IMG/VR virus record: IMGVR_UViG_2695420685_000015
Direction: 5' to 3' (one strand)
Length of the DNA: 50,864 nucleotides
Source: a virus
Lineage: Duplodnaviria; Heunggongvirae; Uroviricota; Caudoviricetes
Shown: positions 14,524 to 19,856 of the stretch, one piece after another
Layout: each line of letters opens with the position of its first letter
Numbering within the stretch: position 1 is the stretch's first letter
Position numbers and translations under genes: made by a program
Notes under the pieces: model-generated
What the model saw: only the letters and a program-made list of their open reading frames with translations
The model's database searches: none
What the model was told of the DNA's origin: nothing

Positions 14524-15753
14524 ATGATAATTGAACAAATAACCCCTTGCTCGGAGCTTGGAATGACTGATACCGCTTTTTCAAAATCGTTACAAAAAGA
14601 AGTCGATCCTGAGCAGTACTTGGCGCTAAAGAATTTAGATGACAGCTCGGTTCATGCTATTGCCCGTGACGATATCATCTGCCCCATTTGCAAAGTTGGA
14701 GGTGGTTCGTTCGTTAGAGCCACTAGGAATGGTGGCTATCACAAGAAGGCGCATTTCAGATTTACCGGTGAAGATGGTCAAGGCCATCATCCATCATGTG
14801 ATTTCTATGGAGATAGACTAACATCTGAGGTGAAGCAGCACCTTGTCTCATTCACAAAAGATCGAACAAAGTATTCGCAGGTAATACGAAAGCTGGTCTG
14901 TGCCGGCATACAGGAAGGGATATTTACTCAAGAAAAAATGTGGCAGATGAGGGAATGGTTCTTCAATAAGCGAAAGGATTCCACATTTGAAATATGGTTA
15001 GAAAGCGAGCATTTAGACTGGCTTTATTATATTAGTGGGTTACGTGATGCATATCTAGCATGGACAACTCCTGATATTCTACCTTTCGCGCCCATTCAGG
15101 TTACTGTGCCTGGTTTTTCTTGGAAGCGTGCGATTGACAAAGAGGTGCTAAGAGTTCACATCAAGACTCTCCAGCAATTGCGTGAAATTTCAGTCTCACA
15201 TAGAGACATTGCTGTAATCTTAGAACACATAAACAATAATCGTGACCGCACAATTCTCGATCCATCGCATTTGGAGGACGAGATAAGTAAGACCTGTAAG
15301 CTTACTAGTTTTGTGATGGGCAATTACATTGAGTTTCAGACAAAAACGGTTAGCGACAGAGCATACGGGGAAGCTAAGTTTCTGGCATTTGCAGCACTTT
15401 TGTTGTTCGTGTCAGATTGGGACCTCAACATTGCTATTGGTAAGTTTTCTAAGATTGCCAGAGTGAAGGAGGTTGATGACATGCTGGCTGGTAATTTCAT
15501 TGGTCTTAATCCTTACTTCCGATACGACCTGGCTAATGCAGTGAAGAGATTGCAGGATAACTGGCCGATTGAATACCAAGAGTTGGAGCATTGGAATGTT
15601 GAGAAATCCATGCGTGACGCATATGAAAAGTGGCGTGCGACAGAGCCTGAATTCGCTCCACCCCTATTGCCAGACTTGTATATTGCCAAACATGAGAAAG
15701 AAGTCGCACAAGACGAGCAAGTCAGGCAGTGGATTAAGAACGGGGATGTTTGA
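14524..15753 (+). CDS. hypothetical protein with Cys/His zinc-ribbon-like motif
   Basis: 409 aa; CPICK...HHPSCDFY cluster; start could instead be ATG 14563. Confidence 0.55.
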   Translation: MIIEQITPCSELGMTDTAFSKSLQKEVDPEQYLALKNLDDSSVHAIARDDIICPICKVGGGSFVRATRNGGYHKKAHFRFTGEDGQGHHPSCDFYGDRLTSEVKQHLVSFTKDRTKYSQVIRKLVCAGIQEGIFTQEKMWQMREWFFNKRKDSTFEIWLESEHLDWLYYISGLRDAYLAWTTPDILPFAPIQVTVPGFSWKRAIDKEVLRVHIKTLQQLREISVSHRDIAVILEHINNNRDRTILDPSHLEDEISKTCKLTSFVMGNYIEFQTKTVSDRAYGEAKFLAFAALLLFVSDWDLNIAIGKFSKIARVKEVDDMLAGNFIGLNPYFRYDLANAVKRLQDNWPIEYQELEHWNVEKSMRDAYEKWRATEPEFAPPLLPDLYIAKHEKEVAQDEQVRQWIKNGDV

Positions 15754-15884
15754 GTGTAATTAGCTTAATCAATCAGTTGATAATGGCGGTCACAATTTGA
15801 TTCTTTTCTATAAGAATCCGTTGATCGCCACTACTCTTCTTCCATACCTGCAATCACACCTTTAAATATCAATAGGTTAACGTT

Positions 15885-16640
15885 GTTTATACCAATAATA
15901 AAACAACTAAATAACAGATCAACGAAACGTCAACGCTTTCACCCGATTTGGTCTAAAAAATTGACGTATTCACACATCACTTCTTATACCCGTAATTCTA
16001 CGCAGCAGACAGCGCCACAGCGTCCAATTTTCACCACAGACGACCCAACACACTACCAACAAAAACACACGCTCAAAATCACTCCCATTGCGTTACATAA
16101 CTATATAAACAACTTATTTTCAGCTATAACAAAACAACTAAATAACACACATGCCATTCCCCAAAACAACCAACCTCTTTATGGCAGGCTACCGAAAAGA
16201 CCCACCTCTTCTCCCCAGGCTACCGGACAGCCAACCTAACTTTCACAGGCAATCCGAAAACATTCATACGCGCGATACCCACGACACGCCATTCCCCAAA
16301 CAGCGAAGAAACACCAGAATCACTGAAAACCCAACGAAGCCTGTAACCGCAAGGATTCTCTCAATCCCAAAAGACACGAAACATAACAATCACGGGAAAC
16401 GCCATTACCCAATACACGAATAACTACAAAAGCCCTTCACACACTCCAGACAAACAACTCAAACACAATAACGAAAGGATTCGCCCACCTGCCATTACTC
16501 CATACATGGAGAAGAACAATCACCAAAACGACGAGAACACCCCATAGAAGAACCACCGCAAAACGAACGAAACCACATACACCGACAGAGAAAACAACAC
16601 ACCCAATTCACCAACAGAAATAGTCGCCGTATAGAACATT
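15885..16640 (+). other. A+C-rich strand-asymmetric ORF-free tract (candidate noncoding RNA or structural DNA element)
   Basis: About 75-80% A+C on the + strand over ~760 bp in sampled 60-nt blocks; no ATG-initiated ORF; internal short repeats (aaaacaactaaataaca twice, ccattccccaaa twice). Confidence 0.6.
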
Positions 16641-16736
16641 CTGGAAGGAGTGAGCATTAACGCCTATAGAGAGGTTGAGACAGATAAAACACAACATGCA
16701 TAGCGAAGAAGCCAGGTATGTATAAGTGGGGAGGGA

Positions 16737-16759
16737 AGGAGGGGTGTCGCCTCCTTTTT
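16737..16759 (+). terminator. rho-independent terminator downstream of A+C-rich tract
   Basis: aggaggggtgtcgcctcct hairpin followed by tttt. Confidence 0.55.
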
Positions 16760-16822
16760 CGTATTTATTCAACTCCTGATTTTATCCCCCGTAACACCCC
16801 TACGGTCAGCCTTCGGTCCATA

Positions 16823-16960
16823 CAGGGAAAAGGCTGCATCCCGCTACAGAAACGGCTGGGTTGCCTTCGGGGAACGGCTGGAGGTTTTCAGGGAAACGGT
16901 CGAGTTGCCTGTGTGGATTTCGGGAGAAGGCTCGATGCCGGTTCAGGAACGGTGGCGTAC
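16823..16960. repeat. iteron-like direct repeat cluster (core GGAAACGGC)
   Basis: cagggaaaaggctgcatccc, cagaaacggctggg, gggaacggctgga, gggaaacggtcgag, gggagaaggctcga, caggaacggtggcg at about 21-30 bp spacing. Confidence 0.6.
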
Positions 16961-17257
16961 CGGTATAGCGAGAGGGAGAGTTGCGGCTACCCACCTGTAA
17001 TGTGCGGGAAGAAGAGAGGCGCTCACGTAGGCGGACTTGCTTACCGCTGGATTCCCTCTGAATGCCCAGCTACAGCGTAATTGTGCCAGACAGCCAACGG
17101 GTCACAATCGATTTCAGTAGGTTTTCGGGGAGAGGATTATTCTGCCCACCAGCCACTAAATCAGAATAATGTAAAAAGTGTACTCGGTACTGAACCTGAA
17201 AACTCACTACCAAAACCACATTCACCGGAATAAAATCCTTTTTCGCCTGTGCGTTAT

Positions 17258-17292
17258 TGCGATAATAACACCATCAAGAAAACATGTTGTTT
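17258..17292 (+). promoter_or_regulatory. class-A promoter/operator copy 6
   Basis: TGcGATAAT then AGAAAACATGTTGTTT at 17277-17292; first in-frame ATG 17284 lies inside the motif. Confidence 0.55.
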
Positions 17293-17304
17293 AAGGATTG
17301 CTTT

Positions 17305-17634
17305 ATGTTTGCAAATATCGACATCAACCAAATCAAGAAATTAACTCAAAAAGAGTTTGATCAGTTTTATGAGTTAGAAGGTTGGTCTTCCACTCTGATC
17401 AATTCGCGGTGGGTGCTTGAGCTGATGACTCGTGATGACGCACCTGCTTTGATGATTTGCGACATGGGTGAAGATGCTGACTTTATGGATATGAGCGAAT
17501 TTTGTGTGGACACATACAACCGCAGCCAGAAGTACTACTTCACATGCGATAGCGAAAATGACGTGATTTCTAAGGTCTATCTTCACCTCGTCCAGCATTG
17601 GGACGTTCAGGAGTTTCTTGAGATATTCGCGTAA
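17305..17634 (+). CDS. hypothetical protein
   Basis: Second in-frame ATG with AAGGAT RBS; 109 aa. Confidence 0.5.
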   Translation: MFANIDINQIKKLTQKEFDQFYELEGWSSTLINSRWVLELMTRDDAPALMICDMGEDADFMDMSEFCVDTYNRSQKYYFTCDSENDVISKVYLHLVQHWDVQEFLEIFA

Positions 17635-18730: not shown

Positions 18731-18749
18731 ACGCAGTGAGGATATGCTC

Positions 18750-19031
18750 ATGACTGATTTCACCATTACCACCAAAGCACAAAATGTATTCCTCGAATCA
18801 TGGCTGGACTTGCCGGAAACAGAACAGCAAGAAATGGATCATGTGGATTATGATGAGCAGGTAAGCACGCGATTCTTCCACTTTGAGGGATGCGTTTACG
18901 ACATTGCCGACTTCATGCGAGATGACCGCTTCCCTGAATGGCACGCAAGCTATCCACTAAACGCCTTTGCCATGCTGATGATCCGTGTGGATGATTCAGG
19001 GGATACCATCGACATCGGTCTGCTCCACTGA
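18750..19031 (+). CDS. hypothetical protein
   Basis: Second ATG (18750) has GAGGAT RBS at proper spacing; 93 aa. Confidence 0.5.
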   Translation: MTDFTITTKAQNVFLESWLDLPETEQQEMDHVDYDEQVSTRFFHFEGCVYDIADFMRDDRFPEWHASYPLNAFAMLMIRVDDSGDTIDIGLLH

Positions 19032-19081
19032 AGAATAAGGTCACCAATGCTGGTGGCCTTAAATGACCATCCTGCTTCCCT

Positions 19082-19160
19082 CAGGCTAAAAACACCAACC
19101 TCTTACCTCCAGGCAACCGACAAACCCACCTGTTCCCGTCCGGCTACCGCAACTTTCCAC
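19082..19160 (+). repeat. partial second copy of the A+C-rich tract
   Basis: caggctaaaaacaccaacctcttacctccaggcaaccgacaaacccacct...ggctaccgcaactttccac resembles 16185-16246 (caggctaccgaaaagacccacctcttctccccaggctaccggacagccaacctaactttcac). Confidence 0.5.
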
Positions 19161-19182
19161 TTTGACGCCTTATTCGTACAAC

Positions 19183-19215
19183 GATAATTAACACAAACAA
19201 GAAAACAATTTGTTA
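19183..19215 (+). promoter_or_regulatory. class-A promoter/operator copy 9
   Basis: GATAAT at 19183-19188 then AGAAAACAATTTGTTA at 19200-19215. Confidence 0.55.
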
Positions 19216-19235
19216 TTTACGATAAGGAATTAATC

Positions 19236-19718
19236 ATGAATTTTATCGCTACTGTAAACGCACCCGCACATGGCAATATCGCTGTAACGTTCTCTGACAT
19301 TGAAAAACGAGTACTTGGTGCATGGCGCGACAATGAGACGGTAGAACTGTCAGCACAAGAAAAATGCATTATTGCACGCGACATCATTGGCAATCGTCGT
19401 TACTCGCGGGTATTTGAGAAAGCGTATGTGGTAAATTCTGGATTCGGAACGTTCGTCTTTCCGGTGCGCTCCGGGCGATTCTGCCAGTCCAAGCTGATTG
19501 AGTTCGCTACGCAGATTTCTTTCTGGATTAAAACTCAATCGTCGTTCAAATTTTCCGACGATGAAGCAGTATCGCAGGGGATGCGGATCGCCAACAATGC
19601 GATTAAATGCAAAAACATTACGTATACCGCTGGCGTTGACACATGGAAACTGTTTTGCGCTAACTTTATGCTGAATGTATACGCAAGCAACCGCATCCAC
19701 ATCCTTGATGGCGTGTAA
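19236..19718 (+). CDS. hypothetical protein
   Basis: ATG with AAGGAAT RBS; 160 aa; terminator-like hairpin agggccagaaacggccct downstream. Confidence 0.55.
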   Translation: MNFIATVNAPAHGNIAVTFSDIEKRVLGAWRDNETVELSAQEKCIIARDIIGNRRYSRVFEKAYVVNSGFGTFVFPVRSGRFCQSKLIEFATQISFWIKTQSSFKFSDDEAVSQGMRIANNAIKCKNITYTAGVDTWKLFCANFMLNVYASNRIHILDGV

Positions 19719-19726
19719 CTGAGAAG

Positions 19727-19856
19727 AGGGCCAGAAACGGCCCTTTATCTATAGCCACCAGCTGCCGCAGGGAAATTTTCAGAAACGGCGAGGAAAGCAT
19801 TCATGAGCCGACGGGAAACGGCCAGGATTTTTTCGGGAAACGGCTGCATTCGCCTT
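19727..19856. repeat. second iteron-like repeat cluster (GGAAACGGC family)
   Basis: ccagaaacggccc, cagggaaattttcagaaacggcgagg, cgggaaacggccagg, cgggaaacggctgcattcgcc; last unit closely matches cagggaaaaggctgcatccc at 16824. Confidence 0.55.

What the first reader, a model, noticed from the sequence alone, without database searches (positions are those of the whole stretch)
15885..16765. ~760-bp strongly A+C-rich, ORF-free tract ending at a terminator, with a partial second copy
The + strand is about 75-80% A+C over ~760 bp (G and T each ~10-15% in sampled blocks), which is extreme strand asymmetry for non-coding DNA. The only ORFs there start with TTG or are low-complexity. A class-A-like element precedes it (15791-15811, 15893-15915), an intrinsic terminator follows it (16737-16759), and a related ~80-bp fragment recurs at 19082-19160. 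The simplest reading is a long G/U-poor, largely unstructured RNA that could act as a protein sponge or decoy; alternatively a DNA-level element that binds single-stranded DNA or marks packaging or replication.
Basis: seen in the sequence. Interest (0 to 1): 0.75.

Follow-up and report, generated by a model that had tools for sequence, protein, structure and literature searches.

The report
Conserved unstructured A+C-rich non-coding tract
A roughly 700-base stretch of a phage-plasmid, kept almost free of G and T on one strand in hundreds of enterobacterial relatives, encodes no protein and would make an RNA that cannot fold or be translated; it most likely stops or gates transcription, but that is untested.

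Summary
Window 15990-16620 is 74% A+C on the + strand, about 7 SD from the window mean in 500-base windows, and it has no conserved ORF. The window is an SSU5-like phage-plasmid. The tract lies in a ~1.5 kb non-coding unit found in 839 plasmid records and in nearly every enterobacterial relative. The composition itself is under selection: A<->C is the commonest substitution, and variable columns remain 64% A+C.

The + strand RNA would be the least structured in the window. It forms one 777-nt C>G stretch, five times longer than any other. It starts at a conserved promoter-like site with repressor-type operator motifs and ends at a purine/pyrimidine hairpin.

Published RNA-seq of a 95%-identical relative shows zero reads over its 5' half in lysogens and very few when both neighbours are expressed. 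This argues against an abundant sponge RNA.

My best reading (confidence about 0.3) is a cis-acting, untranslated Rho-loading zone that acts as an attenuator or insulator ahead of the early-gene cluster. The main rivals are a DNA-level lytic origin or protein-binding array, and a lytic-phase decoy RNA. The conserved internal repeats are unexplained. No description of this element was found in the literature searched.

The parts
15784..15830 (+). Conserved imperfect hairpin (GGCGGTCA...TGATCGCC with an inner stem) at the left edge of the conserved unit. It is probably a terminator or barrier for upstream transcription.
   Evidence: It folds at -19.1 kcal/mol with z -4.9, and at z -1.5 to -3.4 in three other lineages. 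The mean majority fraction is 0.90 across 31 sequences. In Cyrano, expression falls from 57 FPKM (CYRAN_102) to 0 (CYRAN_103) across it.
15893..15960 (+). Regulatory block. It holds an AAAACAAcTAAATAACA operator-like half-site, TCAACG direct repeats, and a GTCAAC...GTTGAC inverted repeat.
   Evidence: It is one of the best-conserved stretches: 15899-15918 and 15946-15955 are above 92%. It is repeated at 16093-16147 (family D5).
15961..15990 (+). Sigma-70-like promoter candidate: -35 TTGACG (15961-15966), an 18-nt spacer, and -10 TATACC (15985-15990). The strong A+C bias starts directly after it.
   Evidence: GTTGAC is near-invariant and the spacing has no indel in 50 of 52 sequences. The -10 lacks the usual final T, so the site did not pass the consensus scan. 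The call is an inference.
15990..16620 (+). Core A+C-rich, G/T-poor tract with no conserved ORF. It is a continuous C>G stretch and would be unstructured as + strand RNA.
16106..16149 (+). Operator-like palindrome (consensus TAAACAAGTTGTTTTC) followed by TATAAG-AAAACAAGTTAACAAC. The same motif lies in front of the small genes at 17277, 17761, 18715 and 19200.
   Evidence: (D3, D5, D7).
16163..16260 (+). Three tandem copies of a C-rich 31-bp repeat (ACCnACCTCTT..CAGGCTACCGAAAAG), the third degenerate. This is the most conserved part of the tract.
   Evidence: D2. 16186-16205 is above 92% conserved. The motif CMGGCWACCG occurs only here and at 19110/19140 in the window, and nowhere else in the Cyrano sequence examined (101 of 108 kb).
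16151..16520 (+). Four dispersed copies (five in SSU5-type relatives) of the motif GCCATTmCnCCAnACAnGGAGAAGAACA, starting at 16153, 16288, 16401 and 16491.
   Evidence: 16494-16517 is among the five best-conserved blocks. Their function is unexplained.
16720..16769 (+). GTATAAG, then the purine tract AAGTGGGGAGGGAAGGAGGGG, which is the 5' arm of a hairpin closed by a pyrimidine arm (CCTCC) and followed by a T run. This is the 3' end of the tract.
   Evidence: The hairpin is kept in 7 lineages through G.U pairs. GTATAAG is the reverse complement of CTTATAC at 15983, with one compensatory change in Klebsiella.
16815..16965 (+). About six G-rich direct repeats with a period of roughly 22 bp (core GGrAAmGGCTGG), downstream of the hairpin.
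   Evidence: The region is no more structured than shuffles (z 0.07), so this is a repeat array and not a folded RNA domain.
19088..19153 (+). Second locus: two more copies of the C-rich 31-bp repeat. They lie just after the stop codon of gene 18744-19031 and just upstream of the promoter of gene 19236-19718.
   Evidence: They fall inside the third-longest C>G stretch on the + strand, 19019-19231.
19770..19848 (+). Second locus: four copies of the G-rich repeat (GGGAAACGGC type). They lie after the terminator hairpin (19728-19746) of gene 19236-19718.
   Evidence: The same arrangement, C-rich repeats followed about 700 bp later by G-rich repeats, occurs in Klebsiella relatives.

Best explanation
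The tract is the body of a conserved non-coding transcription unit of enterobacterial SSU5-like phage-plasmids. Its sequence is selected for composition more than for exact sequence, so that the + strand RNA cannot base-pair with itself, has few start codons and no conserved reading frame, and is C-rich and G-poor throughout. In E. coli and its relatives such naked, unstructured, C>G RNA is the natural loading substrate of the termination factor Rho.

I propose that the unit works in cis. Its position is at the head of the early-gene cluster, whose genes carry repressor-type operator motifs. RNA polymerase may enter from the unit's own operator-flanked promoter, or by read-through past the upstream hairpin. 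It transcribes an RNA onto which Rho loads, probably first on the conserved C-rich 31-nt repeats. Rho then travels along the obstacle-free A+C-rich RNA and releases the polymerase before or at the purine/pyrimidine hairpin. The result is a transcriptional attenuator or insulator.

Shown: the composition, its conservation, the predicted lack of structure, the absence of a gene, and near-absence of transcript in lysogens. Inferred: the promoter, Rho loading, termination, and the biological purpose.
For: 1. The tract is one continuous 777-nt stretch in which every 78-nt window has C/G above 1.5 (15876-16652). The next longest stretch on either strand spans 256 nt. Regularly spaced C residues are five times denser than in the rest of the window.
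2. The 11 least-structured 150-nt windows of the + strand RNA all lie in the tract, at -7.6 to -15 kcal/mol against a mean of -37.5 (sd 7.5). The - strand RNA is ordinary.
3. No ORF is conserved and indels are not multiples of three.
4. Selection acts on composition. A<->C is the commonest substitution class in comparisons at 70% identity or below (58-83 changes, against 35-46 for each transition type). Variable columns are still 64.5% A+C. The A+C profile is kept in all lineages examined: Escherichia, Salmonella, Enterobacter, Citrobacter, Cronobacter, Klebsiella and Kluyvera.
5. The bias begins right after a conserved TTGACG-N18-TATACC site and ends before a hairpin that needs G.U pairs, so only the + strand RNA forms it.
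6. The 31-nt C-rich repeat recurs at 19088-19153, immediately after a stop codon. That is the classic position of a Rho-dependent terminator.
7. In Cyrano the 5' half of the tract has 0 FPKM in LB and at most about 14 FPKM elsewhere, while the flanking genes reach about 590 and 220. A terminated and quickly degraded RNA would look like this.
8. The unit is present wherever the terminase gene is found in Escherichia, Salmonella, Enterobacter, Citrobacter, Cronobacter and Shigella plasmids. Record counts (tract/terminase) are 224/206, 49/49, 90/91, 25/25, 9/10 and 7/7, so it is a core part of the element and not cargo.
Against: - A Rho terminator needs about 100-200 nt, so 630 nt of maintained bias is unexplained unless length itself matters.
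- Uracil is depleted as strongly as guanine, which Rho binding does not require. YC dimers are not enriched beyond composition.
- In Klebsiella relatives the upstream neighbour is on the opposite strand, so insulation from upstream read-through cannot be the whole story.
- Each downstream gene has its own promoter.
- The Cyrano counts are already zero in the 5' half. The upstream hairpin or a silent promoter could explain this without Rho.
- The sequence-specific conserved blocks, namely the GCCATTAC repeats and the G-rich repeats beyond the hairpin, have no role in this model.
- The promoter's -10 lacks the conserved final T.
Confidence: 0.3

Rival explanations
1. DNA-level element. The 1.5 kb non-coding unit is a lytic-cycle origin of replication or another array of protein-binding sites, and the A+C tract is its transcribed or unwound part. 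Transcription from the operator-controlled promoter would activate it in cis. One route is an R-loop whose RNA ends in the purine tract, as in ColE1 or T4 oriF/oriG. Proteins bound to the direct repeats would then load the phage helicase on a displaced strand that cannot fold.
For: - Three families of same-strand direct repeats lie within 1 kb: 31 bp x3, about 28 bp x4-5, and about 22 bp x6. Two of these families recur as a pair 2.9 kb away, and nowhere else in the Cyrano sequence examined (101 of 108 kb). This resembles the ori/crr pair of phage P4 (my own knowledge).
- The transcript would end in a 21-nt purine tract (16724-16744). That is the kind of RNA that forms very stable RNA:DNA hybrids (hybrid stability is my own knowledge).
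- The element encodes UvsW, a gp32-like SSB, UvsY, RecA/UvsX, RNase H, helicase, primase and Pol III alpha.
- The unit is silent in lysogens.
- It is absent from Y. pestis pMT1, which still replicates as a plasmid.
- It is core to the family.
- There is no GATC site for 1.44 kb.
Against: - There is no DnaA box and no A+T-rich unwinding element, and GC content is 45%.
- The known initiator RepA sits about 33 kb away and has different iterons.
- C-rich RNA with negative GC skew is not what favours R-loops.
- The spacing of the GCCATTAC repeats is irregular.
- The boundaries of the bias coincide with transcription signals, which a DNA-level role does not require.
- The 160-aa protein between the second pair of repeat arrays has no recognisable DNA-binding or initiator fold.
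Confidence: 0.2
2. Trans-acting decoy RNA made in the lytic cycle. After repressor loss, the roughly 760-nt unstructured RNA accumulates and ties up a host factor that acts on naked single-stranded RNA. The most plausible target is Rho, which would give phage-wide antitermination by mimicking the phage's own rut-like repeats. Other candidates are single-strand-specific endoribonuclease toxins such as the MazF/PemK (Kid) family, S1, Hfq or the phage's own gp32-like SSB.
For: - Length and multivalency are what a decoy needs, and a cis terminator does not.
- The unit has its own promoter-like site, operator motifs and 3' hairpin.
- The RNA is predicted to be unstructured.
- The same C-rich repeat is used at a gene end elsewhere.
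- UUAC[UC], the best-known Kid/PemK cleavage core (my own knowledge), occurs 4-7 times in non-window lineages against about 0.9 expected.
- Silence in lysogens is expected for a lytic transcript.
Against: - Under conditions where the neighbouring early genes rise to about 220 FPKM, the tract stays at or below about 14 FPKM. That is far too low for a stoichiometric sponge.
- GGA, ARN runs, YC and ACA are not enriched beyond composition in most lineages.
- Pairing with the GU-rich seed of GcvB is no better than elsewhere in the window.
- The UUAC enrichment only reflects the GCCATTAC repeat.
- No Rfam family matches.
- No RNA-based Rho decoy is known (my own knowledge).
Confidence: 0.12
3. Recombination element. 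The G+T-rich complementary strand is a preferred substrate for RecA/UvsX-type strand exchange. It would serve as a hot spot that starts recombination-dependent replication or exchange between related phage-plasmids.
For: - RecA prefers GT-rich single strands (my own knowledge).
- The element encodes RecA/UvsX, UvsY, UvsW and SbcCD homologues.
- The genes immediately upstream differ between lineages, which marks a mosaic boundary.
Against: - No Chi site lies in the tract.
- The boundaries of the bias match transcription signals.
- The model explains none of the repeats or the hairpins with G.U pairs.
Confidence: 0.05
4. A decayed or unusual protein-coding gene, for example one for a Thr/Asn/Pro/Gln-rich disordered protein.
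For: - Stop trinucleotides are depleted relative to dinucleotide-preserving shuffles, at z -3 to -4.8 in non-window lineages.
- Open frames of up to 218 codons occur in some relatives.
- The phage-plasmid carries tRNA-Asn, tRNA-Thr and tRNA-Ser genes and a MetRS gene.
Against: - No frame stays open across lineages and the open stretches lack start codons.
- Indels of 1, 2 and 11 nt separate close relatives.
- A<->C changes dominate, with no third-position pattern.
- PGAP calls nothing there.
- The stop depletion is explained by TA almost always being part of the conserved UAC-containing repeats.
Confidence: 0.03

Closest known systems
Rho-dependent terminators (rut regions), e.g. lambda tR1, and long untranslated leaders attenuated by Rho
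   Same: The RNA is C-rich, G-poor, unstructured and untranslated. One copy of the repeat sits just after a stop codon. Almost no transcript is seen downstream of an expressed gene.
   Different: The tract is about 5-8 times longer than a usual rut region. U is depleted as much as G. It has its own promoter-like site with operators and conserved internal repeats. Rho dependence has not been tested.
Protein-sponge RNAs (CsrB/CsrC, RsmY/Z, CrcZ)
   Same: It is a non-coding RNA candidate with repeated motifs in single-stranded context, with its own promoter and terminator.
   Different: GGA and A-rich Hfq/Crc motifs are not enriched beyond composition, GGA excepted in one lineage of six. There are no hairpin-presented motifs and no Rfam match. 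It is two to three times longer than these RNAs. It is not expressed in the conditions for which data exist.
Transcription-activated or R-loop origins (ColE1 RNA II, T4 oriF/oriG) and split iteron origins (P4 ori/crr)
   Same: It is a non-coding region with a regulated promoter and an RNA ending in a purine tract. Direct-repeat arrays occur at two loci a few kb apart. The element carries UvsW, RNase H and gp32-type genes.
   Different: There is no A+T-rich unwinding element and no adjacent initiator gene. The GC skew has the wrong sign for R-loop formation. There is no experimental origin mapping.
Unstructured translational operator of the T4 gene 32 mRNA
   Same: It is selected for lack of secondary structure, which allows cooperative coating by a single-strand-binding protein. 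A gp32-like gene is present in the element.
   Different: The T4 operator is about 40 nt, A+U-rich, and part of a translated mRNA. This tract is over 600 nt, A+C-rich, and followed by no gene.

Membership tests
Rho-dependent terminator / rut region | A C>G stretch of at least about 80 nt in the transcript | tested here: met
   C/G is above 1.5 in every 78-nt window from 15876 to 16652. The median ratio is 2.4 and the maximum 8.
Rho-dependent terminator / rut region | Little secondary structure in the RNA | tested here: met
   The 11 least-structured 150-nt windows of the window lie in the tract. The whole transcript folds at -0.16 kcal/mol per nt.
Rho-dependent terminator / rut region | RNA not covered by ribosomes (untranslated) | tested here: met
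   There is no conserved ORF. Only 7 ATG/GTG/TTG triplets occur in 718 nt. The conclusion rests on sequence alone.
Rho-dependent terminator / rut region | Termination that depends on Rho (bicyclomycin, rho or nusG mutants) | not testable with these tools
   Only indirect evidence exists: 0-14 FPKM in Cyrano between expressed genes.
Intrinsic terminator (3' end of the tract) | G+C-rich hairpin followed by a U run | tested here: met
   In the window lineage there is a stem at 16733-16754 followed by TTTTT. In SSU5-type relatives the hairpin is kept but the U run is poor.
CsrB/RsmZ-type or CrcZ-type protein sponge RNA | Many GGA (CsrA) or A-rich ARN/CA (Hfq/Crc) motifs beyond chance | tested here: not met
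   GGA has z between -1.3 and +1.4 in five of six lineages. ARN runs have z between -0.4 and 1.6.
CsrB/RsmZ-type or CrcZ-type protein sponge RNA | Abundant transcript | tested here: not met
   There are 0 FPKM in LB and at most about 14 FPKM in macrophage or DMEM conditions for the 5' half in Cyrano. The lytic cycle has not been sampled.
Any curated RNA family (Rfam 15) | Match to a covariance model | tested here: not met
   No hit reaches the gathering threshold in the whole window. The only hit with E up to 5 is a chance-level one at E = 2.
Iteron-type replication origin | Arrays of direct repeats at helical spacing | tested here: inconclusive
   Repeats of 31 bp (x2-3) and about 22 bp (x6) are present. 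The third family is irregularly spaced. No binding protein is known.
Iteron-type replication origin | Adjacent initiator gene, DnaA boxes and an A+T-rich unwinding element | tested here: not met
   RepA lies about 33 kb away with different iterons. There is no DnaA box in 15500-17500. GC content is 0.40-0.51.
Type III toxin-antitoxin RNA antitoxin (ToxI-like repeats) | Tandem repeats of about 34-36 nt followed by a terminator and a ToxN-type toxin gene | tested here: not met
   There are only 2-3 copies of 31 nt. TRF finds no tandem array. The gene after the second copy has no Pfam match and no PDB fold match.
Protein-coding gene | Reading frame conserved among relatives | tested here: not met

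The most novel reading that the evidence does not exclude
The tract encodes a lytic-phase 'naked RNA' decoy. This would be a long transcript selected to use a non-pairing A/C alphabet, so that it soaks up Rho or single-strand-specific defence ribonucleases of the MazF/PemK type. A phage-plasmid would thereby gain RNA-based, protein-free antitermination or anti-defence.
Probability: 0.12. Interest if true: 0.85.

Novelty: new variant of a known kind. Interest (0 to 1): 0.6.

Why it matters
SSU5-like phage-plasmids are common in clinical Escherichia, Klebsiella, Salmonella and Enterobacter isolates and can carry resistance genes. How they switch between plasmid life and lytic growth is poorly understood.

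This unit is one of their most conserved non-coding regions. It shows a rare kind of constraint, selection on a two-letter non-pairing alphabet over 600 bases, and not on exact sequence.

If it is a Rho-loading firewall, it would show how such elements keep expressed accessory genes from leaking into lytic genes. If it is a lytic origin or a decoy RNA, it would identify either the missing lytic replicon of this family or a new class of phage RNA.

In each case it gives a precise target for deletion and for bicyclomycin experiments.

Tried and rejected
- **CsrA, Hfq or Rho-dimer motif enrichment.** GGA, ANGGA, ARN runs and YC were tested against mono- and dinucleotide shuffles in six lineages. 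None is enriched except GGA in one lineage.
- **Sponge for the GU-rich sRNA GcvB.** Duplex energies with the R1 seed are no better in the tract (mean -21.8) than across the window (-19.1, sd 4.1; top hits lie elsewhere).
- **MazF (ACA) decoy.** ACA is enriched only in the window lineage (z 2.1), not in the others.
- **Folded RNA domain in the G-rich region 16762-17010.** The MFE equals that of shuffles (z 0.07). RNAalifold gives only -13 kcal/mol and no convincing consensus.
- **RepA iteron array for copy control.** The RepA iterons (CTATAGTGGAT type) are unrelated.
- **Paralogy between the tract and the gene in the second locus.** Only the two flanking repeat families match. tblastn of the 160-aa protein against the tract finds nothing.
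- **Invertible segment flanked by CTTATACC/GGTATAAG.** All 52 extracted relatives have the same orientation. Three truncated copies (L014, L026, L045) break at different points.
- **GGTATAAG as a phage-specific promoter.** The motif is not repeated across the genomes.
- **Function of the neighbouring small proteins.** Pfam gives only DUF5983 and the PHROG families are all 'unknown function'. The AlphaFold model of the 160-aa protein is confident (pLDDT 88) but has no Foldseek match in the PDB.
- **Analogous tract in distant relatives.** Y. pestis pMT1 has lost the region. An Acinetobacter phage-plasmid has no comparable bias or unstructured zone.
- **Literature.** Six full-text searches found no description of this element. 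One preprint on an SSU5-like phage-plasmid could not be read.
Full report
**What the window is**

The region 15800-16800 matches Escherichia phages CMS-2020a, Cyrano and PhiR41_1 at 94-96% identity. These are genomes of about 108 kb. At lower identity it matches Salmonella phage SSU5 and Klebsiella phage-plasmids. The window is therefore part of an SSU5-like phage-plasmid. In Cyrano the tract lies at 94.4-95.2 kb. Upstream are accessory genes that are expressed in lysogens. Downstream is a run of small + strand genes that ends at a divergent transcriptional regulator.

**Checking the observation**

The strand bias is real and extreme.
- The core 15990-16620 is A 0.41, C 0.33, G 0.12, T 0.14.
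- The best 500-base window has 0.75 A+C, against a window-wide mean of 0.499 (sd 0.036) and a maximum of 0.576 elsewhere.
- 100-base windows reach 0.84.
- GC skew is -0.49 and AT skew +0.42.

The terminator, the partial second copy at 19088-19153 and the lack of convincing ORFs are all confirmed.

**It is conserved, and the composition is what is conserved**

- blastn finds the tract in 839 plasmid records from Klebsiella, Escherichia, Enterobacter, Salmonella, Citrobacter, Cronobacter and Shigella. It also finds 61 viral contigs and Kluyvera genomes.
- Record counts per genus match those of the large terminase gene almost one to one in the Enterobacteriaceae, except Klebsiella (431 against 342). 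The unit is therefore core to this family.
- In ten, and then 35, non-redundant relatives the A+C profile is the same, although identity to the window falls to 59-68%.
- Between the window and each relative at 70% identity or below, A<->C transversions are the most frequent change (58-83, against 42-46 A<->G and 34-42 C<->T).
- Variable alignment columns are still 64.5% A+C.
- No reading frame stays open between lineages. Indels of 1, 2 and 11 bases separate close relatives. PGAP annotates no gene over about 1.5 kb.

A mutational origin is unlikely. The skew has sharp edges and is several times larger than any other in the window.

**Anatomy of the ~1.5 kb unit, 15784-17280**

1. A conserved hairpin at 15784-15830 (z -4.9).
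2. A conserved regulatory block at 15893-15960 with an AAAACAA half-site and TCAACG repeats.
3. A promoter-like TTGACG-N18-TATACC at 15961-15990 with fixed spacing. The bias starts directly after it.
4. An operator-like palindrome (consensus TAAACAAGTTGTTTTC) at 16106-16121. The same GAAAACAAnnTGTT motif lies between the extended -10 (TGCGATAAT) and the ribosome-binding site of each small gene downstream, at 17277, 17761, 18715 and 19200.
5. Three C-rich 31-bp tandem repeats at 16163-16260. This is the best-conserved part of the tract.
6. Four or five dispersed copies of GCCATTAC..ACGGAGAAGAACA.
7. GTATAAG followed by a 21-nt purine tract. The purine tract is the 5' arm of a hairpin whose 3' arm is all pyrimidine. 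Every lineage keeps this hairpin through G.U pairs, so it can form only in + strand RNA. In the window lineage it is a good intrinsic terminator.
8. About six G-rich direct repeats of roughly 22 bp at 16815-16965. These are not a folded RNA domain (z 0.07).

Two further points go beyond the finding.
- The C-rich and G-rich repeat families occur together a second time, at 19088-19153 and 19770-19848. They have the same order, strand and spacing of about 700 bp. There they bracket a promoter, a 160-aa gene of unknown function and its terminator. Klebsiella relatives have the same arrangement, and the motifs occur nowhere else in the Cyrano sequence examined (101 of 108 kb).
- CTTATAC(C) at 15983 and GTATAAG at 16720 are reverse complements flanking the tract. 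Klebsiella relatives have CTTATATC and GATATAAG, a compensatory change, and one relative has the T.G intermediate. This is a single covarying pair. It is suggestive but not proof of pairing or of a shared binding protein.

**Properties of the RNA**

- Folded in 150-nt windows, the + strand RNA of the tract gives the 11 least stable windows of the entire 50.9 kb. Values are -7.6 to -15 kcal/mol against a mean of -37.5 (sd 7.5). The - strand RNA is ordinary because G.U pairs are available to it.
- The tract is one continuous 777-nt stretch with C/G above 1.5. The next longest stretch on either strand spans 256 nt.
- The second-locus repeats form the third-longest stretch on the + strand and sit right after a stop codon.
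- No Rfam family matches.

**Expression evidence**

The LF82 study (PMC9928086) re-analysed RNA-seq of a Cyrano lysogen. Its S1 Table gives log2(FPKM+5) values.
- CYRAN_103, an annotated ORF covering the first 357 nt of the unit, has 2.32 in both LB replicates. That is 0 FPKM. In DMEM and macrophage samples it has 2.7-4.3, or at most about 14 FPKM.
- The co-directional upstream gene CYRAN_102 has 57 FPKM in LB and about 590 in macrophages.
- The first downstream gene, CYRAN_105, reaches about 220 FPKM.

The tract is thus a near-silent island between expressed genes in every condition sampled. No data exist for full lytic induction.

**Interpretation**

The sponge function is not supported.
- The RNA is absent or very rare where data exist.
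- GGA, ARN runs and YC dimers are not enriched beyond composition, GGA excepted in one lineage of six.
- ACA is not enriched outside the window lineage.
- Complementarity to the GU-rich sRNA GcvB is unremarkable.

An untranslated, unstructured, C>G RNA is the textbook substrate of Rho (established knowledge). An RNA that Rho terminates and that is then degraded would be nearly invisible in RNA-seq.

I therefore favour a cis-acting Rho-loading zone, at a confidence of about 0.3. It would be an attenuator or insulator at the head of the early-gene cluster, whose genes carry repressor-type operator motifs. The conserved C-rich repeats would be the likely entry site, and the same repeat would serve as a gene-end terminator at 19088-19153.

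This model has clear weaknesses.
- The tract is far longer than a terminator needs to be.
- U depletion is not required by Rho.
- In Klebsiella the upstream gene is divergent.
- The GCCATTAC and G-rich repeats are left unexplained.

**Rivals**

- *DNA-level role (about 0.2).* This would be a lytic origin or other protein-binding array. In favour: three direct-repeat families, their duplication at a second locus, the terminal purine tract, the T4-like replication and recombination genes (UvsW, UvsY, gp32-like SSB, RNase H), silence in lysogens, and loss from Y. pestis pMT1, which still replicates as a plasmid. Against: no DnaA box, no A+T-rich region, RepA and its different iterons lie elsewhere, and the GC skew has the wrong sign for R-loops.
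- *Lytic-phase decoy RNA for Rho or for single-strand-specific ribonucleases (about 0.12).* This would explain the length and remains open.
- *Recombination hot spot (0.05) and cryptic coding (0.03).* Both are unlikely.

The remaining probability is for a function not listed here.

**Distribution limits**

An Acinetobacter phage-plasmid with the same gene order has no comparable A+C tract or unstructured zone. The syntenic non-coding gap there is A/G-rich. It has ATGTAGAAA-type repeats and two copies of ACAGGTATAAGGA, which recall the AGGTATAAG-purine end of the enterobacterial tract. I treat this as a lead only.

**Novelty**

Six full-text searches found no description of this element. If the Rho reading is right, it is an unusually long, composition-selected variant of a known kind of signal. 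If the decoy or origin readings are right, it would be more novel.

Noticed in passing
window 568, 1297, 14065, 17762, 18716, 19201 (+) and 14017, 18668 (-): The motif GAAAACAAnnTGTT lies next to extended -10 promoters (TGCGATAAT) in front of many small genes. This looks like a regulon of one repressor that covers the whole early or accessory cluster. The tract carries two related copies.
   Followed up: partly
window 16163-16260 with 16815-16965, and 19088-19153 with 19770-19848: Two unrelated direct-repeat families (C-rich 31 bp, G-rich about 22 bp) occur only as a pair. They appear twice, about 640-710 bp apart on the same strand, and the arrangement is conserved in Klebsiella relatives. 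One pair brackets the A+C tract. The other brackets a gene (phrog_1641) with its promoter and terminator.
   Followed up: partly
window 15983-15990 and 16719-16726: The 8-mers CTTATACC and GGTATAAG (7 of 8 in the window itself) flank the tract as inverted repeats. Klebsiella relatives carry the compensatory pair CTTATATC/GATATAAG, and one relative (L058) has a T.G intermediate.
   Followed up: partly
window 15918-17358: No GATC (Dam) site occurs for 1.44 kb, although the window averages 4.2 per kb. 6-bp palindromes are three times rarer in the tract than elsewhere.
   Followed up: no
window 19236-19718: This 160-aa protein (phrog_1641) is confined to SSU5-like phage-plasmids. Its AlphaFold model is confident (pLDDT 88, pTM 0.77), but it has no Pfam match and no Foldseek match in the PDB.
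   Followed up: partly
window 19049-19056 and others: A Chi octamer (GCTGGTGG) sits inside the hairpin just after gene 18744-19031. Chi occurs 8 times on the + strand and 4 times on the - strand of the window.
   Followed up: no
L079 (NZ_CP016301.1) 93,900-95,260: An Acinetobacter baumannii phage-plasmid has a 1.35 kb unannotated, A/G-rich gap at the syntenic position. It contains ATGTAGAAA-type repeats and two copies of ACAGGTATAAGGA. This may be a distant analogue of the unit.
   Followed up: partly
L076 (NC_017158.1, Y. pestis pMT1) about 36.9-39.3 kb: pMT1 keeps the terminase gene (82% identity) and the phrog_1641-sized gene. It lacks the tract and most of the small-gene cluster, and an IS1541 sits at the junction.
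   Followed up: partly
L014, L026, L045 (IMG/VR contigs): In these three relatives the unit is cut short by unrelated DNA. The breakpoints differ, at about window 16797, 16319 and 16060. These are probably insertions or rearrangements.
   Followed up: partly
L013 10,143-10,633 and 11,688-12,432 (Cyrano 60.1-62.4 kb): The plasmid replicon has CTATAGTGGAT-type iterons on both sides of repA, plus GATC clusters and TGTGGATAA boxes. The layout resembles the P1 plasmid replicon.
   Followed up: no
window about 11.7-13.8 kb (by synteny with Cyrano CYRAN_100) and Cyrano 39.0-39.3 kb: The element encodes a methionyl-tRNA synthetase about 2 kb upstream of the tract, and tRNA-Asn, tRNA-Thr and tRNA-Ser genes elsewhere.
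   Followed up: no
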